Below the pieces are notes generated by a model. The model worked only from the letters and a program-made list of their open reading frames with translations. It was not told where the DNA came from and did not search any database. Of a DNA stretch of 64,000 nucleotides, positions 8,980 to 61,740 are shown one piece after another. Each line of letters opens with the position of its first letter. The first letter of the stretch is position 1. The translations under genes and the position numbers were made by a program. Origin of the DNA: Anaerobium acetethylicum (GTDB lineage: Bacteria; Bacillota; Clostridia; Lachnospirales; Lachnospiraceae); the NCBI RefSeq assembly GCF_900096945.1, contig NZ_FMKA01000001.1:426291-490290 (forward strand), given 5' to 3'.

Positions 8980-10035
8980 TTATTCTTCGCTTTCGCCAGC
9001 TGCCGAACCTGATGATTTCAGTGCTTCCCCTGCCGCGCCGGTATTCAGCCCGAAACTCTCTCTTACTTTTAATTCAATTTCATCCATAACTTCCGGATGT
9101 TCTTTCAGATAAATCTTAGCATTTTCGCGTCCCTGTCCGATTTTCGCATCATTATATGCATACCAGGAACCGCTCTTAATGACTATGTTCTGATTAGCTG
9201 CAAGATCAAGAACATCGCCTTCTCTTGATATTCCCTGGCCAAACATGATGTCGAATTCTGCTTCCTTAAAAGGCGGAGCGATCTTATTCTTGACCACCTT
9301 TATCCTCGTCCTGTTTCCGACCATTTCTCCGCCCTGTTTGATTGCCTCGATTCTTCTGACATCAAGACGTATGGAAGAATAGAATTTCAAGGCCCTTCCG
9401 CCTGTTGTAGTCTCTGGACTTCCGAACATGACTCCGACCTTTTCACGGAGCTGGTTGATGAAGATTACCGTACAGTTTGTCTTGCTGATCGAGCCTGTCA
9501 GTTTTCTCAGCGCCTGCGACATCAGCCTTGCCTGAAGTCCCATATGCGAGTCACCCATATCGCCCTCGATTTCAGCTCTTGGAACAAGCGCCGCAACGGA
9601 ATCGACAATGATGATGTCTACTGCTCCAGACCTTACCATTGTTTCAGTAATTTCCAAAGCCTGTTCTCCATTGTCCGGCTGTGATATGTATAAATTATCG
9701 ATATCTACACCAATCCTCTTTGCATATGCCGGGTCAAGCGCATGCTCCGCATCGATAAAGCCTGCTATTCCTCCCCTTTTCTGAACTTCTGCAACCATGT
9801 GAAGGGCAACTGTCGTCTTACCGCTCGATTCAGGTCCATAGATCTCAACAACCCTTCCCTTAGGAATGCCGCCAAGGCCCAGGGCTATATCAAGACTGAT
9901 CGATCCAGTCGGGAACGTCTCAATATTCATATTTGCTCCCGAATCACCAAGCTTCATGACAGCTCCTTTTCCGAACTGTTTTTCTATCTGCATAATCGCT
10001 GATTGTAAGGTCTGCATTTTATCTTCTTTTGCCAT
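8980..10035 (-). CDS. recA: recombinase RecA
   Basis: 351 aa; Walker [10 protein letters not shown], canonical RecA throughout. Confidence 0.97.
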
Positions 10036-13239: not shown

Positions 13240-13500
13240 CTGTTCCTCCCCCTTCTTGTTTAATCCCCCGCTTGTTGCCGGCGCAGCCCCTCCCTGCAGC
13301 CGGAAGTTAATTGTTTCGTTTTATCATTTTTTGCAGACATGCCATTCATAGTTCCATGAAACGTAGGGATACCCTGAGTATGCACTCAGGGTATCTCGAC
13401 ATGTGTTTATAAAAAACATATTAATGCCACAACGAATGATCACTCTCTGTAAATCCGGTCCACAACAGTCCTGTTGATAGTCAGTGTTATTTAATTATTC

Positions 13501-13642
13501 GTAACTATTCAGGACTACGTCCGTCATAGTCACAAATGATGTACACAAATTGCAAAATCAGCAATTTGGGGCACGCATGTCTCGGGTTTTATGCAAATTC
13601 AGCATAAAAACACCTCGCGAGACAGGGGTTCTGAACAGTTAC
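13501..13642 (+). mobile_element. family A MITE-like element, copy A1 (142 bp, ~15-bp imperfect TIRs) with perfect 8-bp TSD aattattc
   Basis: gtaactattcaggac...gttctgaacagttac; flanks 13493-13500 and 13643-13650 both aattattc; >85% identical to copies at 55370, 61598, 42516. Confidence 0.8.
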
Positions 13643-13710
13643 AATTATTCTAATAAATATTATACCGTAGGATTTTTAATTCGTAAAGCCCATTGTCCAA
13701 TACAGTCCGT

Positions 13711-15583: not shown

Positions 15584-15865
15584 AACACTCCTTTTCTTCT
15601 CATAATATTTCTTTCTATGTAAACATCCCAGTTTGAATGTTTCATTACCGTCATATATTCTATCATTGTTTTCCAGCCATGACAAGGATAACTTGGCGGA
15701 AAATCACGTTCTGCATGCCCCTTGAATCCTGCATTTTCGGCATCCATTTTCAAATATAGGTTGTTTTTTGGTATTTATAAGTTATAATAATATGTGACTA
15801 TCCAGGTCTTTATCCTGGATGGTCACATATTATTATACTAGATTTTTTTATTGGAGGTAAAGTGC

Positions 15866-21214: not shown

Positions 21215-21272
21215 TTTGCTGCATCTCCTTTTCTTATAAATATACATTTTAAATTTTACAGTATAAGTCAAA

Positions 21273-21315
21273 AAACCTTGGTATCATTGTATACAATGAT
21301 ACCAAGGTTTGTCAA
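21273..21315 (-). promoter_or_regulatory. promoter (TTGACA-16-TATACA) overlapped by a perfect 32-bp palindrome (candidate GntR operator)
   Basis: ccttggtatcattgtatacaatgataccaagg at 21276-21307; contains T.GT-N-AC core typical of GntR/FadR sites; -10 sits at the dyad. Confidence 0.5.
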
Positions 21316-21353
21316 CATGTATTTTATCATTTCATTTTCACTTCAATTCACCC

Positions 21354-21504
21354 GTTACTGTTCACTCCGCGACCAGTAACACGCTACGCGATGCACAGAA
21401 ATGGTTGAAATGCACCATTTCGCGCTGCAAGCCCCGGGTTTTTCGTGATTTCCGCTTCGCTACACTCACAAAAAACACCTTGTGCAAACAACGTGTGAAC
21501 AGCA
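21354..21504 (+). mobile_element. degenerate family A-like element (A5)
   Basis: gttactgttcac...gatgcacagaaatggt-tgaaatgc-accatttc...gggttttt...aaaaacacct...gtgtgaacagcaac; same architecture as family A, ~60% identity. Confidence 0.4.
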
Positions 21505-21513
21505 ACATTCACC

Positions 21514-22059: not shown

Positions 22060-22118
22060 TAATCGTTTCCCCCATTATATGAATAAGCTGTAACTGTTCA
22101 GAATCCCCATCCGGGCAG

Positions 22119-39921: not shown

Positions 39922-42327
39922 CTATTTCATTACGATGTTGATGATTCTTCCCGGCACATAGATTTCCTTAACAACGTTTCCGGTAAGCTTGTCTGCAATC
40001 GCTTCCCTGCCGGCCGCAATTGCATCTTCTTTGCTGATGTCAGCAGCAATTTTAATGACCATACGTGTCTTGCCGTTAATCTGTACAGCAACTTCGATTT
40101 CGTCATCTTTCATGGCTTCCTCATCATGTTCAGGCCACTGGTTTTCGAATACTGAAGTTTCGTGACCAAGCTGCTCCCATAAGTCCTCTCCGATGTGAGG
40201 GATAAATGGTGCAAGAAGGATTACTGCCGTTTCAAGGGTCTCCTTGTCGATTCCGCCTTCCTTCTTTGCCAGATCGATGAGCTTATTGTTGTACTCCATG
40301 AATCCGCTGACTACCGTGTTGAGGCTGAAGCCTTCCAGACGGGAAGTGATGTCGTAAATCATCTTGTTTCTGACTTTGATCATTTCCTTCGTAGCAGGCA
40401 CATTCTTTTCTTTGTTGTCAGTTACCAGGTTCCAGAAACGGTTGATGAATCTGTAAACGCCGTCAATGCCCCTGTCATCCCATTCTGAATCGAGTTCAGG
40501 CGGTCCAACAAAAAGTTCATACATTCTTAAGGAATCGCAGCCATAATCGTTGACAAGTTCGTCAGGAGAAACAACATTTCCTTTTGACTTGCTCATTTTT
40601 GCTCCGTCCTTGCCGATCATTCCCTGATTGAAGAGCCTTGTGAAAGGTTCGTCGAAGTCTATCACTCCGATATCATTCAGGAATTTCGTATAGAACCTTG
40701 AGTACAGAAGATGGAGAACAGCATGTTCCACCCCGCCGATGTACATATCTACCGGAAGAAGTTTCTCAGCTTTTTCTTTTGAAACAAGCTCTTCCGTATT
40801 GTGGCTGTCTACATAACGCAGGAAATACCATGAGGAGCCTGCCCACTGAGGCATTGTGTTTGTTTCCCTCTTTGCAGGACCGCCGCATACAGGACAGGTG
40901 GTGTTGACCCATTCATGAATGTCTGCAAGAGGTGATTCTCCTGTTCCCGTAGGCTGATAAGATTCAACTTCAGGAAGAAGCAATGGAAGCTGGTCTTCCG
41001 GTACAGGCACGGCTCCGCAGTGTTCGCAGTGAACGATTGGAATCGGTTCACCCCAGTAGCGTTGTCTTGAGAATACCCAGTCCCTTAATTTGTAGTTTGT
41101 AGTCTTTTTGCCGATTCCTCTTGATTCCAGGATTCCAGGAACGTCGCGCTTCGCGTCTGCTGAATTCATTCCGTTGAATTCTCCGGAATTGATCATGATT
41201 CCTGCTTCCGTATAGGCTTCGGTCAGGTTTTCTACTTCAACGCCGTCTTTGGCGATTACCTGGATGATCGGAATATTGAATTTCGTTGCGAAGTCAAAGT
41301 CCCTGTCATCGTGGGCAGGCACGCACATGATTGCGCCTGTACCGTAGTCAGCCAGTACATAGTCTGAAATCCAGATTGGAACCATTGCTCCGTTTAATGG
41401 GTTCACTGCATAGCTTCCTGTGAATACGCCTGTTTTTTCCTTGTCCTGAAGACGGTCAACGGATGATCTCATGGAAGCTTTAAAAATATAGTCTTCCACT
41501 TCTGCTTTTTTATCATCTGTCGCAAGCGATTTTGCAAGTTCATGTTCCGGTGCCAGGACCATGAATGTTGCGCCATAAAGGGTATCCGGCCTTGTCGTGT
41601 AGACCTTCACGGTTTCTTCCCTGCCCTCTACCGCAAAATCAACTTCTGCGCCGTAGCTCTTGCCGATCCAGTCAGACTGCATCTTCTTCACTTTTTCAGG
41701 CCAGTCGAGCTTATCAAGGTCGTCTAACAATCTGTCTGCATAAGCGGTGATTTTAAGCATCCACTGTCTTAAGTTTTTCTTTGTTACAGGTGATCCGCAG
41801 CGTTCGCATTCGCCGTTAACAACTTCTTCATTTGCGAGACCTGTCTTACATGACGGACACCAGTTGATCGGCATCTGCTTTTCATATGCAAGGCCGGCTT
41901 TGAACATTTTAACGAAAATCCACTGGGTCCATTTGTAGAATTCAGGATCCGTTGTGTTTACTTCCATATCCCAGTCGTAGATTGCTGCGATTTCATTGAT
42001 CTGCCTCTTGATGTTTGCAACATTCTCGGCTGTGGATTTTTTAGGATGCACGCCCATCTTGATTGCATAATTTTCAGCCGGAAGGCCGAATGCATCCCAT
42101 CCCATTGGATGGATGATGTAGTAGCCCTTGAGCATTTTGTAACGGCTCCATACATCGCTGATTACATATCCCCTCCAGTGCCCAACATGGAGACCGCTGC
42201 CTGATGGATACGGGAACATATCCAGACAGTAATACTTTGGTTTCTTTCCATCATTTACATTTACGGGATTTGCTTCCCATTTCTTGCGCCATTTCGATTC
42301 TACTTCCTTATGATTATAAGATGACAT
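39922..42327 (-). CDS. leuS: leucine--tRNA ligase
   Basis: 801 aa; HVGH and KMSKS motifs. Confidence 0.97.
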   Translation of the reverse strand: MSSYNHKEVESKWRKKWEANPVNVNDGKKPKYYCLDMFPYPSGSGLHVGHWRGYVISDVWSRYKMLKGYYIIHPMGWDAFGLPAENYAIKMGVHPKKSTAENVANIKRQINEIAAIYDWDMEVNTTDPEFYKWTQWIFVKMFKAGLAYEKQMPINWCPSCKTGLANEEVVNGECERCGSPVTKKNLRQWMLKITAYADRLLDDLDKLDWPEKVKKMQSDWIGKSYGAEVDFAVEGREETVKVYTTRPDTLYGATFMVLAPEHELAKSLATDDKKAEVEDYIFKASMRSSVDRLQDKEKTGVFTGSYAVNPLNGAMVPIWISDYVLADYGTGAIMCVPAHDDRDFDFATKFNIPIIQVIAKDGVEVENLTEAYTEAGIMINSGEFNGMNSADAKRDVPGILESRGIGKKTTNYKLRDWVFSRQRYWGEPIPIVHCEHCGAVPVPEDQLPLLLPEVESYQPTGTGESPLADIHEWVNTTCPVCGGPAKRETNTMPQWAGSSWYFLRYVDSHNTEELVSKEKAEKLLPVDMYIGGVEHAVLHLLYSRFYTKFLNDIGVIDFDEPFTRLFNQGMIGKDGAKMSKSKGNVVSPDELVNDYGCDSLRMYELFVGPPELDSEWDDRGIDGVYRFINRFWNLVTDNKEKNVPATKEMIKVRNKMIYDITSRLEGFSLNTVVSGFMEYNNKLIDLAKKEGGIDKETLETAVILLAPFIPHIGEDLWEQLGHETSVFENQWPEHDEEAMKDDEIEVAVQINGKTRMVIKIAADISKEDAIAAGREAIADKLTGNVVKEIYVPGRIINIVMK

Positions 42328-42404
42328 TTTTATTCCTCCTGAAATTTATTATTATTCTGAGTGATTTTGATTTATGGGAAATTCGTAGAATTTCCTATAA
42401 AGAC

Positions 42405-42514
42405 TAGCGTGTCAAAAGCCCTCTCGCAACCTTCGGCTTCGTCAATTTGCACATTCGCCATCCAGCAAGCAGTGATGCAAAACATGATTCAATGAGCAGC
42501 TTTATGAAGACGTT
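42405..42514 (+). repeat. family B repeat, truncated copy B1
   Basis: gtgtcaaaagccc...ttcgtcaatttgcacatt...gtgatgcaaa...tgaagacgt; aligns to 60928..61080. Confidence 0.6.
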
Positions 42515-42515
42515 G

Positions 42516-42657
42516 GTAACCATTCCGGACTACGTCCTTCATAGTTACATATGATGCACACAAATTGCAGGAACTGCAATTTGGTGCACGCCGAACTCGG
42601 GTTTTTATGCAAAAGCAGCATAAAAACACCTCGCGTCACCGGACTTCTGAACAGTCA
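42516..42657 (+). mobile_element. family A element copy A2 (diverged termini, no TSD)
   Basis: gtaaccattccggactacgtccttcatag...caaattgcag-gaa-ctgcaatttg...ttttatgc..gcataaaa...ttctgaacagtc. Confidence 0.75.
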
Positions 42658-42671
42658 AACCATTGGTACGC

Positions 42672-42823
42672 AAGGCCGCTAAATGCGCGGCCCTACGTAC
42701 CACTACGTCTTCATCTAAGCGAGAGCGCGCTGCGAATGAACATGTTTTGCATCACGTCCTCATTCTCGAAACTTGTGCAAATTGACGAACACTATTTTGT
42801 AAATGGGCTTTTGACACTCCACT
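42672..42823 (-). repeat. family B repeat copy B2 (inverted relative to B1)
   Basis: rc aligns over ~150 nt to 60928..61080 (gtggagtgtcaaa...gatgaagacgtagtggtacgtagggccgc). Confidence 0.65.
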
Positions 42824-42833
42824 CCTATAAATC

Positions 42834-43150
42834 AAAAAAGCCTTTTCATCCTGAACATATTCCTATATTCATAGAGACGAAAAGGCTGAACTCGCGGTAC
42901 CACTCTAATTCATCCTGCACTGCAGGATGCACTCATTTTTCTATAACGGGAATCAGCCGCCTTTTTCTACTCAGGAACGATATCTTTACAGCCTGATGTT
43001 ATCCCGGCATGTATGAAATCTTCAGTTTCAAAAAAGGAACTCCAAGGCGAGTTGGGAGTTTTCAGGTACTGCCTCACACCTTCCGGCAGTTCTCTGGGAC
43101 CTTATGACTCTTAATACTCCTCTTCACAGTATTTACAATATTGCACTAAA
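42834..43150 (-). ncRNA. T-box riboswitch leader, candidate Leu (CUC) specifier, with terminator hairpin + U-tract
   Basis: minus-strand AATTAGAGTGGTACCGCG (plus 42893-42910); terminator agccttttc/gaaaaggct + U6 at 42834-42887; AGUA and AGAGA stem-I elements; CUC in candidate specifier loop. Confidence 0.7.
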
Positions 43151-48433: not shown

Positions 48434-48767
48434 TTTAATGCCTCCTTATAGGTTGCTGATTTTGTTAAATACTACTTATTCTAACAGTTTTGCAGGAAAA
48501 TAACAACCAGCTTGTCAACATAAACGGACAGGGCACCGGAACATCATTCTCCGATACCCTGTCCAATTGACTGCCTGCAGATATCCACTCCTATCAGCCG
48601 GCATCTATACCCTATACCTACGGATTGTTCCGCACTTTGTGCTCCCACAATCCTGAAAACATGAGAAATCCGCCCTGTTCGGGCTGCTTTCTCATGTTTT
48701 GCGGGTCCCAAAGTCATGCTTTTTCATGCAAGCATGAAACACATGACCTTTTGACCCTGGTATCATA

Positions 48768-54798: not shown

Positions 54799-54834
54799 GC
54801 CAGTCACTGCGAACAATTGTTCACAGTGACTGGC
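54799..54834. terminator. 36-bp near-perfect palindrome; bidirectional terminator between aroA and flavodoxin-like gene
   Basis: gccagtcactgcgaacaattgttcacagtgactggc (2 mismatches). Confidence 0.55.
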
Positions 54835-55331
54835 ATCTTTCATACCACTCGATTACAGGTCTGAGATTCTCCTCGTTTACGAAATCTCCACCCTCTTTTA
54901 TCATTTTGAGATATTCCTCTTCAGCTTCCGTCTTATCTTCTTTCTTTAGAAGCGCCGGTTCCATCATCCTGATCATTTGATTCATCATAAATTTGTATAT
55001 TCCGCTCAGCCTGCTGATATCAAAGCCTCCCTGCAGATAAAACAAGCCGATGCCCTCAATCCGGTGTTTTTTTCGCAATTCATCAGCTGTCTTTTGATCC
55101 GGCACGCTCATTCCCACCGCACAGACTGCTTTGATATCATATCTTTTCTTTGCCTTTTCATACCCGGCGAGCGCCCCTGCCCTTATCCATCCGAGAAAAA
55201 TAACTTCATCGCTTTTTTCAGGCTTGCAGCCGCCTTGTCTGCATCATAAACAGGAAGTCCTGTCTTAGCACCAAGCATCGCAGCATATTCCTTTGTATGT
55301 CCGGCATTCGATTTGTAAATAATCGCTTTCA
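54821..55331 (-). pseudogene. flavodoxin-like protein gene interrupted by a frameshift at an A6 homopolymer (~55212-55217)
   Basis: frame 1 MKAIIYKSNAGHTKEYAAMLG...ASLKK then stop; adding one A restores ~170-aa ORF continuing into ORF 54821..55117. Confidence 0.5.
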
Positions 55332-55369
55332 TCCGTCATCCCCCTTTTTTATTATTACTTTGTTTATTA

Positions 55370-55512
55370 GTAACTGTTCCGAACCCCTGTCTCGCGAGGT
55401 GTTTTTATGCTGAATTTGCATGAAAATCCGAGACATACGTGCGCCAAATTTCTGATTTTGCAATTTGTGTGCATCAAATGTGACTATGAAGGACATAGTC
55501 CTGAATAGTTAC
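55370..55512 (-). mobile_element. family A element copy A3 with perfect 8-bp TSD gtttatta
   Basis: flanks 55362-55369 and 55513-55520 identical; TIRs gtaactgttccgaac / gtaactattcaggac. Confidence 0.8.
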
Positions 55513-60927: not shown

Positions 60928-61080
60928 GTGGAGTGTCAAAGGCCCCTTTCAACATAATATTCGTCAATTTGCACATTTTTTATAATGAGGACGTGATGCA
61001 AATCGTGTTCATGCGCAGCGCACTCTCGCTTAGATGAAGACGTAGTGGTACGTAGGGCCGCAAAATACGCGACCAGCTCC
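60928..61080 (+). repeat. family B repeat copy B3 (full length ~153 bp)
   Basis: gtggagtgtcaaaggcccc...cgtcaatttgcaca...gtgatgcaaa...gatgaagacgtagtggtacgtagggccgc. Confidence 0.65.
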
Positions 61081-61597: not shown

Positions 61598-61740
61598 GTA
61601 ACTATTCAGGACTACGTCCTTCATAGTCACAGATGATGCACACAAATTGCAAAACCAGCAATTTGACGCCTAGAGAACTCAGGTTTTTATGCAAAATCAG
61701 CATAAAAACACCTCGCGAAACGGGCGTTCTGAACAGTTAC
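61598..61740 (+). mobile_element. family A element copy A4 with 8-bp TSD (gattgttt/gattattt, 7/8)
   Basis: gtaactattcaggactacgtccttcatag...gttctgaacagttac. Confidence 0.8.

What the first reader, a model, noticed from the sequence alone, without database searches (positions are those of the whole stretch)
13501..13642. Family A: ~142-bp TIR-flanked MITE-like element with 8-bp target-site duplications, >=4 copies in 64 kb
Copies at 13501-13642 (+), 42516-42657 (+), 55370-55512 (-) and 61598-61740 (+) share >85% identity. Each begins gtaactattcaggac and ends gttctgaacagttac, which are ~15-bp imperfect terminal inverted repeats. Three copies are flanked by direct repeats of the insertion site: aattattc (perfect), gtttatta (perfect) and gattgttt/gattattt (7/8). 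This is the hallmark of transposase-mediated insertion. Internally each copy has two 8-bp stem / 7-nt loop hairpins (caaattgc-aaaatca-gcaatttg and ttttatgc-aaattca-gcataaaa). Copy A2 shows a compensatory stem extension (caaattgcag-gaa-ctgcaatttg), suggesting an RNA or DNA structure is maintained. All copies are intergenic. Four to five copies in 64 kb implies hundreds per genome. The GTAA start plus 8-bp TSD is compatible with IS66-like mobilisation, but that is only an inference.
Basis: seen in the sequence. Interest (0 to 1): 0.8.

Follow-up and report, generated by a model that had tools for sequence, protein, structure and literature searches.

The report
Small mobile DNA with IS66-type ends
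Four copies of a 142-bp non-coding mobile element (a MITE) sit between genes in this Anaerobium acetethylicum window, and their ends match those of IS66-family (ISBst12-type) insertion sequences; this is an ordinary kind of element, but this family is not described in the literature I could search.

Summary
The window contains exactly four full copies: 13501-13642 (+), 42516-42657 (+), 55370-55512 (-) and 61598-61740 (+). They are 80-92% identical and have sharp boundaries. The terminal inverted repeats match at 13 of 15 positions. The 8-bp target-site duplications match 8/8, 8/8, 7/8 and, in the oldest copy, 5/8.

The host is Anaerobium acetethylicum (Lachnospiraceae). A diverged sister element lies at 21354-21506 (153 bp, duplication 8/8). 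Relatives in gut-type contigs share the same layout and 8-bp duplications.

Five single-gene IS66-family elements of the ISBst12 group were sampled, from Geobacillus, a Dethiobacteria genome and metagenomes. All begin GTAACT..TCAG, and three show 8-bp duplications. One right end, GTAACTATTCAGGAC, equals the family A left end at 15 of 15 positions.

The internal hairpins recur at equivalent positions in all subfamilies, with compensatory stem changes. Yet 60-61-bp mini-derivatives that lack them still carry duplications, so the hairpins are probably not needed for movement.

The partner transposase in this genome and the genome-wide copy number could not be tested.

Verdict: a new member of a known kind, of moderate interest.

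The parts
13501..13642 (+). Family A copy A1 (142 bp). Left inverted repeat 13501-15; left-end hairpin 13501-33; hairpin 1 at 13546-68; hairpin 2 at 13587-609; right inverted repeat 13628-42. Duplication AATTATTC at 13493-13500 and 13643-13650 (8/8).
   Evidence: It lies between the stop of an Oxidored_molyb gene (13711) and the start of a YkuD L,D-transpeptidase gene (13239), both on the - strand. A promoter-like site at 13687-13659 (-) lies upstream, so A1 is probably inside the 5' UTR, antisense to the transcript.
42516..42657 (+). Family A copy A2, the oldest and most diverged (80-83% identity). Its 3' end is eroded (CAGTCA). The duplication is degenerate: AGACGTTG at 42508-15 and AACCATTG at 42658-65 (5/8). 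Hairpin 1 is extended to 10 bp.
   Evidence: It is nested inside another repeat (family B, 42403-42813). An uninterrupted B copy in L014 reads TGAAGACGTTG^GTAC at the insertion point. It lies in the leuS leader, between the T-box (42870-43136, -) and the leuS ATG at 42327.
55370..55512 (-). Family A copy A3 (143 bp). Duplication GTTTATTA at 55362-69 and 55513-20 (8/8).
   Evidence: It sits 38 nt upstream of a flavodoxin-like gene (ATG at 55332, - strand) in the sense orientation, and is divergent from a DUF2703 gene. It is present at the same site in two metagenome contigs of the same species (L016, L017).
61598..61740 (+). Family A copy A4 (143 bp). Duplication GATTGTTT at 61590-97 and GATTATTT at 61741-48 (7/8).
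   Evidence: It lies between the stop of a 57-aa membrane-protein ORF (61750) and the start of a MIF/tautomerase gene (61472), both on the - strand. It is present at the same site in L013, L014, L016 and L017.
21354..21506 (+). Sister element C1 (153 bp, about 60% identical to family A, same order of modules). Inverted repeats GTTACTGTTCAC and GTTGCTGTTCAC. Duplication ATTCACCC at 21346-53 and 21507-14 (8/8).
   Evidence: The isolate's own short-read contig (L015) ends inside it, as expected for a sequence repeated elsewhere in the genome.
22090..22111 (+). Solo end remnant GTAACTGTTCAGAATCCCC. It matches the family A right end (read as its reverse complement) at 18 of 19 positions, with no partner end nearby.
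   Evidence: It lies between an HD-domain gene and a DUF1653 gene.

Best explanation
Family A is a non-autonomous DNA transposon, a MITE. It keeps only the two ends that an IS66-family transposase of the single-gene ISBst12 group recognises, plus about 110 bp of non-coding filler folded into hairpins. A transposase supplied in trans, from a full-length element elsewhere in this genome or formerly present in the lineage, would bind the GTAACT.TTCAG termini. It would then insert the element at AT-rich intergenic sites with staggered cuts 8 bp apart, which produces the 8-bp duplications.

Shown here: the four copies, their ends, the duplications, one nested insertion, and identity of the ends with those of real ISBst12-type elements.

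Inferred: that such a transposase actually moved them, and that the elements are carried passively in 5' UTRs and intergenic transcripts.

The internal hairpins are kept as hairpins across diverged subfamilies. They are probably dispensable for movement, so they are best viewed as selected or self-correcting palindromes that ride within the element.
For: (1) Copies, ends and duplications.

(2) A2 is nested in another repeat. A paralogous empty site shows exact insertion between ...GACGTTG and GTAC....

(3) Twelve independent insertions of this superfamily, or of other short elements with the same ends, have duplications of 7/8 or 8/8: A1, A3, A4, C1, L018, the L020 locus, L019+L048, L051, L030, two in L023, and L006.

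(4) Ends of real ISBst12-group elements, each encoding a protein with DDE_Tnp_IS66 + zf-IS66 + DUF6444:
- Geobacillus kaustophilus pHTA426, 1635 bp: GTAACTATTCAGCCC / GTATCTATTCAGCCC, duplication AACTCGTC 8/8.
- The 1583-bp element carrying P0028: left GTAACTATTCAGCCCC, right GTAACTATTCAGGACACCC, duplication ATAAAAAG 8/8.
- The element carrying P0068: GTAACTGCTCAGCC.
- An ISBst12-named transposase in G. icigianus: GTAACTATTCAGCC.
- A Dethiobacteria element: GTAACTGCTCAGCC, duplication AAATATAT 8/8.

(5) The literature describes IS66 terminal repeats of 20-30 bp starting GTAAGCG, with 8-bp direct repeats (PMC11946415; PMC3281130).

(6) There is no conserved ORF. A4 has a stop codon and A1 a frameshift, and the translated consensus has no hit in the protein database. 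No Rfam family matches.

(7) The isolate's short-read contigs end inside A1 and C1, as repeats do.
Against: - No ISBst12-type transposase gene, or any transposase, was found in the 64-kb window. None could be looked for in the rest of the genome.
- The sampled insertion sequences share only the terminal 12-15 nt with family A, not the subterminal sequence. None of them is the direct parent. The closest (P0028) belongs to a clade whose named members are methanogenic archaea.
- No empty site was found in another strain. Both same-species metagenome contigs carry A3 and A4.
- Families C and E begin GTTAC rather than GTAAC.
- Three relatives lack a clear duplication: A2, L055 and L046.
Confidence: 0.85

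Rival explanations
1. It is a MITE, but it is mobilised by a different transposase family that also makes 8-bp duplications (ISL3, IS256, IS6/IS26 or IS1595).
For: Several families give 8-bp duplications (established knowledge; IS6 with an 8-bp DR appears in the table of PMC3281130). No partner transposase was identified in this genome.
Against: To my knowledge the ends of those families start GG.., GA.. or similar, not GTAAC. The terminal 12-15 nt of family A are identical to those of elements that encode DDE_Tnp_IS66 transposases.
Confidence: 0.06
2. It is primarily a structured non-coding RNA or regulatory DNA module, maintained by selection for its hairpins. The inverted ends merely form a closing stem, and mobility is secondary or extinct.
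For: - The elements fold much better than shuffled sequence (z = -3.3 to -7.4).
- Hairpins sit at equivalent positions with different stem sequences in families A, C and E. Four of 8 basal pairs in hairpin 1 and 5 of 8 in hairpin 2 change on both sides, with very few broken pairs.
- A1, A2 and A3 lie between promoter-like or T-box elements and start codons, so they are probably transcribed.
Against: - Duplications and insertion-sequence-type ends show insertion by transposition.
- Three of four copies are antisense to the surrounding genes and one is sense, so orientation is not fixed.
- No promoter or terminator consensus lies inside the elements.
- The 60-61-bp minis lack both hairpins yet have duplications.
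- Template-switch repair within palindromes can mimic compensatory change without selection.
- My stem alignments were made by hand from the hairpin bases, which biases them towards pairing.
Confidence: 0.07
3. The copies are a local segmental duplication or a chance repeat confined to this region.
For: Only four copies were seen, all within 48 kb. Genome-wide counts are unavailable.
Against: - Similarity stops exactly at the inverted repeats and the flanks are unrelated.
- Each copy has its own duplication.
- Related elements occur in unrelated contigs from other samples.
- The isolate's contigs break inside the repeats.
Confidence: 0.01
4. It is a hairpin-ended element moved as single-stranded DNA by a Y1/HUH enzyme, either IS200/IS605-type or REP/RAYT-type.
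For: Hairpins are prominent, including one at the very left end.
Against: By established knowledge, those elements have neither terminal inverted repeats nor target-site duplications. Here both are present and consistent.
Confidence: 0.01

Closest known systems
IS66 family, ISBst12 group (single-ORF elements such as ISBst12 of Geobacillus)
   Same: The terminal sequence GTAACT(A/G)TTCAG is identical over 12-15 nt to the sampled members. Both make 8-bp target-site duplications and favour AT-rich targets.
   Different: Family A is 142 bp rather than about 1.6 kb and has no transposase gene. Its subterminal and internal sequences are unrelated to the sampled insertion sequences. Its left end carries a second, inverted copy of the terminal repeat, forming a 33-nt hairpin.
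Classical three-gene IS66 elements of Proteobacteria (ends GTAAGCG...; tnpA, tnpB, tnpC)
   Same: The ends start with GTAA and the duplications are 8 bp (PMC11946415). Some have ends such as GTAACCGTCCGGGCA (PMC12888890), which resembles A2's GTAACCATTCCGGAC.
   Different: Only about 8-10 of 15 terminal positions match. The hosts and element organisation are different.
Bacterial MITEs in general (Correia/NEMIS of Neisseria, RUP of Streptococcus pneumoniae, MITEAba12 of Acinetobacter, PMC6382973)
   Same: All are short and non-coding, with terminal inverted repeats and fixed-length duplications. They are dispersed in intergenic regions and are often co-transcribed with neighbouring genes.
   Different: They belong to different transposase families and have different duplication lengths (for example TA for Correia, from my own knowledge). 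No regulatory role has been shown for family A.
Sister families found here: C (window 21354-21506; L055, L046, L021) and E (L018, L020 locus, L025, L056)
   Same: They share the same order of modules: inverted repeat, left-end hairpin, hairpin 1, CTCGGG box, hairpin 2 on a T/A-run base, AAACACCTCGCG box, inverted repeat. They also make 8-bp duplications.
   Different: Their ends are GTTACTGTTCAC. They are about 60% identical to family A. The stem sequences of the hairpins differ. They were found in contigs predicted as viral, some apparently from the gut.

Membership tests
MITE (non-autonomous derivative of a DDE insertion sequence) | Short (under about 300 bp) with no transposase or other conserved ORF | tested here: met
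   The element is 142-143 bp. The one open frame is broken by a stop in A4 and a frameshift in A1. The translated consensus finds nothing in 5.8 billion proteins.
MITE (non-autonomous derivative of a DDE insertion sequence) | Terminal inverted repeats | tested here: met
   13 of 15 positions match in A1 and A4. The ends are the sharp limits of similarity between copies.
MITE (non-autonomous derivative of a DDE insertion sequence) | Target-site duplication of fixed length flanking each copy | tested here: met
   The duplications are 8 bp: 8/8, 8/8, 7/8 and 5/8 for A1, A3, A4 and A2. The background rate for 7/8 or better is about 1e-3 per position. The same length is seen in relatives.
MITE (non-autonomous derivative of a DDE insertion sequence) | Multiple dispersed copies in one genome | tested here: met
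   There are four copies at unrelated sites across 48 kb. The isolate's contigs break in A1. The genome-wide number was not testable.
MITE (non-autonomous derivative of a DDE insertion sequence) | A cognate autonomous element with the same ends in the same genome or a related one | not testable with these tools
   The rest of the A. acetethylicum genome could not be reached. Scans of genome, metagenome and viral collections with the ends found no long element. The top 120 homologues of two ISBst12-type transposases included none named for this species.
IS66 family / ISBst12-group ends | Terminal repeat beginning GTAA | tested here: met
   Family A begins GTAAC at both ends. The literature rule is in PMC11946415. 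Sister families C and E begin GTTAC.
IS66 family / ISBst12-group ends | 8-bp duplication | tested here: met
   for the MITEs. for the insertion sequences.
IS66 family / ISBst12-group ends | Ends match those of elements that encode a DDE_Tnp_IS66 transposase | tested here: met
   12 of 12 positions match the Geobacillus pHTA426 and G. icigianus elements. 15 of 15 match the right end of the element carrying P0028. Pfam domains are given.
IS66 family / ISBst12-group ends | Mobilised by that transposase | not testable with these tools
   This needs a transposition assay.
IS200/IS605-type or REP/RAYT-type hairpin elements | No terminal inverted repeats and no target duplication | tested here: not met
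   Both inverted repeats and duplications are present.
Any Rfam RNA family | Match at the family's gathering score | tested here: not met
   The window's only hits are a T-box and Clostridiales-1 RNA, both elsewhere. A permissive scan of A1 gave only chance-level hits with E of 0.17 or worse.

The most novel reading that the evidence does not exclude
The hairpin modules inside these elements are functional, not filler. They persist as hairpins with compensatory stem changes across subfamilies that are only about 60% identical, although mini-derivatives suggest they are not needed for transposition. Three of the four copies sit in probable 5' UTRs, including the leuS T-box leader. They could therefore act at the RNA level, for example on stability or processing, or as binding sites for a host or transposase-accessory factor. 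That would make this a mobile, modular regulatory cassette spreading through Lachnospiraceae. A related possibility is that the 33-nt left-end hairpin, which is two terminal repeats abutted head to head, is a fossil of a circle or dimer junction. That would hint at a copy-out/paste-in route for ISBst12-type elements.
Probability: 0.15. Interest if true: 0.55.

Novelty: new member of a known kind. Interest (0 to 1): 0.35.

Why it matters
It adds a MITE superfamily to the Lachnospiraceae, a major gut and digester family whose small mobile repeats are little catalogued. It ties that superfamily to a specific transposase group, ISBst12 within IS66, through identical ends.

Practical consequences:
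- These repeats break short-read assemblies. The isolate's own contigs end inside them.
- They can seed spurious ORF calls.
- They sit in leaders of core genes (leuS, a YkuD transpeptidase gene, a flavodoxin gene), where they may alter expression.

The terminal 12 nt are the same in elements from Bacilli, Clostridia-type hosts and a clade whose named members are methanogenic archaea. That makes them a useful signature for finding more such elements.

Tried and rejected
- Genome-collection scan with the 5' 20-mer. It gave three hits: one chance hit, one partial relative at a contig end (Anaerosporobacter MAG, L004) and one solo 24-nt end (L002). The source genome itself is evidently not in that collection.
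- Metagenome scan with the same 20-mer. It gave eight hits. All but L009, a short remnant after a trigger-factor gene, were chance.
- Viral scan with the family A core 20-mer gave no hits. A scan with the 15-nt end gave 43 hits, all chance and none with a partner end.
- BLAST of A1 against plasmids found nothing. Against phages it gave one weak hit, which turned out to be a real sister element.
- I tried to find more copies through spurious ORFs in the protein database, using the translated element. Nothing was found.
- I looked for empty sites in other strains through identical flanking proteins. Only the isolate's own contigs, or same-species contigs that carry the same insertions, were found.
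- I looked for an E. coli IS66 copy on pB171 and pO157 to use as a query. The accession was absent and there is no IS66 on pO157. Those three calls were wasted. The Geobacillus plasmid pHTA426 then supplied a query.
- L027, L029 and L031 share a 16-mer with family C, but show no partner end and no transposase. I treated this as chance or as unrelated.
- No promoter or terminator consensus lies inside the elements.
- The segmental-duplication and Y1/HUH-element readings were rejected on the flank comparison and on the duplications.

Full report

Reading the four stated intervals shows a shared sequence of about 142 bp at each. In a four-way alignment with 20-nt flanks, similarity starts exactly at GTAAC and stops exactly at GTTAC, and the flanks are unrelated.

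A profile built from the four copies finds them again with E about 1e-46 to 1e-48. It finds nothing else of full length in the 64 kb. Pairwise identity is 92% for A1/A3, 85-87% for A4 against A1 and A3, and 80-83% for A2 against the rest.

The ends GTAACTATTCAGGAC and GTAACTGTTCAGAAC (the right end read as its reverse complement) match at 13 of 15 positions. The flanking 8-mers are:
- A1: AATTATTC / AATTATTC.
- A3: GTTTATTA / GTTTATTA.
- A4: GATTGTTT / GATTATTT.

Two 8-mers at this spacing agree at 7/8 or better at only about 60 of 63,800 positions in this window.

I also ran an unbiased scan for any pair of 14-nt inverted repeats (up to 3 mismatches), 60-600 bp apart and flanked by an 8-bp repeat of 7/8 or better. 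It returned five candidates in the whole window: A1, A3, A4, a new element at 21354-21506, and one probable chance hit inside a coding region.

**2. A2 and its nested insertion**

A2 has eroded ends (GTAACCATTCCGGAC ... CTGAACAGTCA) and no obvious duplication. It lies inside a second repeat, family B, whose two long inverted arms flank it.

A metagenome contig of the same species (L014) holds an uninterrupted B copy. That copy reads ...TGAAGACGTTG^GTACTTGG... where the window reads ...TGAAGACGTTG[A2]AACCATTGGTACGC....

This fixes the insertion point. It shows that the 8 bp after A2 (AACCATTG) are a decayed copy of AGACGTTG (5/8). A2 is therefore an old, nested insertion, which is typical behaviour for a transposable element.

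**3. Host and genomic context**

The RecA protein encoded at 8980-10035 is identical to WP_091229292.1 of Anaerobium acetethylicum. This is a member of the Lachnospiraceae isolated from biogas slurry, with a 4.6-Mb draft genome in 105 scaffolds (PMC5322786). That paper mentions no transposons.

The window is core chromosome. It carries recA, the RNase Y gene, leuS with a T-box leader, aromatic amino-acid biosynthesis genes and a Lon protease gene.

Position of each copy:
- A1 lies between the stop of an Oxidored_molyb gene and the start of a YkuD transpeptidase gene. It is downstream of a promoter-like site.
- A2 lies between the T-box and the leuS start codon.
- A3 lies 38 nt upstream of a flavodoxin-like gene, downstream of a promoter-like site.
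- A4 lies between a small membrane-protein ORF and a MIF-family gene.

Three copies are antisense to the surrounding genes and one is sense. No sigma-70 promoter or intrinsic-terminator consensus lies inside A1 or A3. No Rfam family matches.

**4. Relatives elsewhere**

The source genome is not in the searchable genome collection. The 5' 20-mer found only a partial relative at a contig end in an Anaerosporobacter MAG, a solo end, and chance hits.

A weak BLAST hit to a 'phage' scaffold from human faeces (MT839053) proved to be a 143-bp sister element. It has perfect 12-nt inverted repeats (GTTACTGTTCAC) and a perfect 8-bp duplication, GCAATTTC. Its left end matches the new window element C1 (21354-21506; duplication ATTCACCC 8/8).

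Pattern scans of IMG/VR with motifs shared by these two elements found more members:
- One locus seen in six contigs (duplication GAATCTTC).
- A composite of L019 and L048 (TTTTAAAG).
- L051 (TTTTCGTG).
- L055, L046, L056, L047, L025 and L021.
- Two mini-elements of 60 and 61 bp (L030, TTTCTATT 8/8; L023, 7/8).

A uniform extraction across all fetched DNA also turned up two unrelated short elements with the same kind of ends and 8-bp duplications. These are L006 3296-3440 (8/8) and L023 1621-1725 (7/8).

In total, twelve independent insertions show 7/8 or 8/8. Three do not: A2, L055 and L046.

**5. Which transposase?**

The literature states that IS66 ends start GTAAGCG and that insertions are flanked by 8-bp repeats (PMC11946415; PMC3281130). 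A paper on Geobacillus kaustophilus lists an IS66/ISBst12 element on plasmid pHTA426 (PMC8024623).

Reading that plasmid shows a 1635-bp element with one gene, annotated as an IS66-like transposase. It begins GTAACTATTCAGCCC, ends with the reverse complement of GTATCTATTCAGCCC, and is flanked by AACTCGTC on both sides. Its first 12 nt are identical to family A.

I then sampled homologues of that transposase, all with Pfam DDE_Tnp_IS66 + zf-IS66 + DUF6444, and read their DNA:
- The element carrying P0028 is 1583 bp. Its left end is GTAACTATTCAGCCCC and its right end is GTAACTATTCAGGACACCC. The right end matches the family A left end at 15 of 15 positions. The duplication is ATAAAAAG.
- The element carrying P0068 has GTAACTGCTCAGCC at both ends.
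- An element in G. icigianus, whose protein a source names ISBst12, has GTAACTATTCAGCC.
- A Dethiobacteria element has GTAACTGCTCAGCC with the duplication AAATATAT.

All five sampled elements begin GTAACT..TCAG, and three have perfect 8-bp duplications. The named close relatives of P0028 are from methanogenic archaea. The end motif is therefore a signature of the group rather than a pointer to one parent.

No transposase is present in the window. None attributable to A. acetethylicum appeared among the listed homologues. The partner element remains unidentified.

**6. Internal anatomy and what the hairpins mean**

All subfamilies share one order of modules:
1. Terminal repeat.
2. A left-end hairpin, in which the terminal repeat pairs with an inverted copy of itself about 20 nt inside. 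In family A this is GTAACTAT..ATAGTCAC around AGGAC-TAC-GTCCT.
3. Hairpin 1.
4. A CTCGGG box.
5. Hairpin 2, built on a T-run/A-run base.
6. An AAACACCTCGCG box.
7. Terminal repeat.

.

The elements fold far better than shuffled sequence (z = -3.3 to -7.4). Stem sequences differ between subfamilies while pairing is kept. Examples for hairpin 1:
- CAAATTGC / GCAATTTG in family A.
- GAAATGGT / ACCATTTC in C1.
- GAAATCATGC / GCATGATTTC in L055.
- Within family E, ATTGCC / GGCAAT against ATCACC / GGTGAT.

Counted from the hairpin bases, 4 of 8 pairs in hairpin 1 and 5 of 8 in hairpin 2 change on both sides, with very few broken pairs.

Three caveats apply. These alignments were made by hand. The sequences are few and related. 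Template switching within palindromes can produce the same pattern without selection.

Against a role in transposition, the two mini-elements consist of just the left and right arms joined directly. They lack both hairpins and both boxes, share the same junction, sit at different loci and have their own duplications. So the hairpins are probably dispensable for movement. This assumes the minis moved after the deletion.

**7. Verdict**

This is a genuine MITE family with ISBst12/IS66-type ends and 8-bp duplications. It is one branch of a wider superfamily in Lachnospiraceae-type hosts.

My literature searches found no described MITE of this transposase group. ISfinder could not be queried. I therefore file it as a new member of a known kind.

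The claim of hundreds of copies per genome is untested. The only indirect sign of further copies is that the isolate's own short-read contigs end inside A1, C1 and family B.

Noticed in passing
window 42403-42813 and 60938-61074; L014 2900-3330: There is a second repeat, family B. It has long inverted arms (GTGTCAAAAGCCC...CGTCAATTTGCACA...GATGCAAAACATG...). The 42.4-kb copy carries A2 nested in its centre and lacks about 165 nt that the full copy in L014 has. The 61-kb copy in the window and in L013 is only the right arm. Relative to L014 it shows a deletion of about 330 bp at a TGG microhomology, so it is polymorphic between strains.
   Followed up: partly
window 15790-15835: A 47-nt near-perfect palindrome (AATAATATGTGACTATCCAGG-TCTTTAT-CCTGGATGGTCACATATTATT) lies upstream of an ABC-F gene. 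Its core matches the 33-nt left-end hairpin of family A at 23 of 33 positions. It has no direct-repeat flanks. It may be an operator or a relic; the nhmmer E-value was only 0.05.
   Followed up: partly
window 54821-55332 (-): The flavodoxin-like gene just downstream of A3 is split into two ORFs of 49 aa and 98 aa in the window. It is an intact 170-aa Flavodoxin_5 gene in the same-species contigs L016 and L017. This is a frameshift or an assembly error. The genome paper reports 867 pseudogenes.
   Followed up: no
L023 151-211 and L030 3339-3398: These are 60-61-bp mini-elements made of the left and right arms of the C-type element joined directly. They have duplications of 7/8 and 8/8. They appear to be a mobile deletion subfamily.
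   Followed up: partly
L006 3296-3440; L023 1621-1725: These are two unrelated short elements (145 and 105 bp) with ISBst12-type ends (ATAACTATTCAG/GTAACTATTCAG and GTAACAGTTCAGCC) and 8-bp duplications. They were found by accident in loci fetched for other reasons. This suggests that MITEs of this transposase group are common.
   Followed up: no
L035-L039 (element carrying P0028); The ISBst12-type element whose right end equals the family A end belongs to a clade whose named members are Methanoregula and Methanolinea. The same 12-nt terminus is therefore shared by elements in Bacilli, a Dethiobacteria genome and methanogenic archaea. Duplication halves are swapped between contigs (AGAAGTTC, CACCTTTT), probably because of chimeric assembly or recombination between copies.
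   Followed up: no
window 42870-43136 (-) and 48612-48765 (-): A T-box leader lies upstream of leuS, now separated from the start codon by about 540 nt of inserted repeats. A Clostridiales-1 sRNA is also present. Both are above the Rfam gathering score.
   Followed up: no
L026 1067-1209 and L046 5309-5476: Sister elements lie in contigs predicted as viral. One is 0.9 kb from a GH25+CHAP endolysin gene and the other is next to IS21-type IstA/IstB genes. It is unclear whether they sit in prophage DNA or in adjoining host DNA.
   Followed up: partly
window 21251-21332: Two abutting 41-nt inverted arms (78% complementary) lie just upstream of C1, next to the start of the HMGL-like gene.
   Followed up: no
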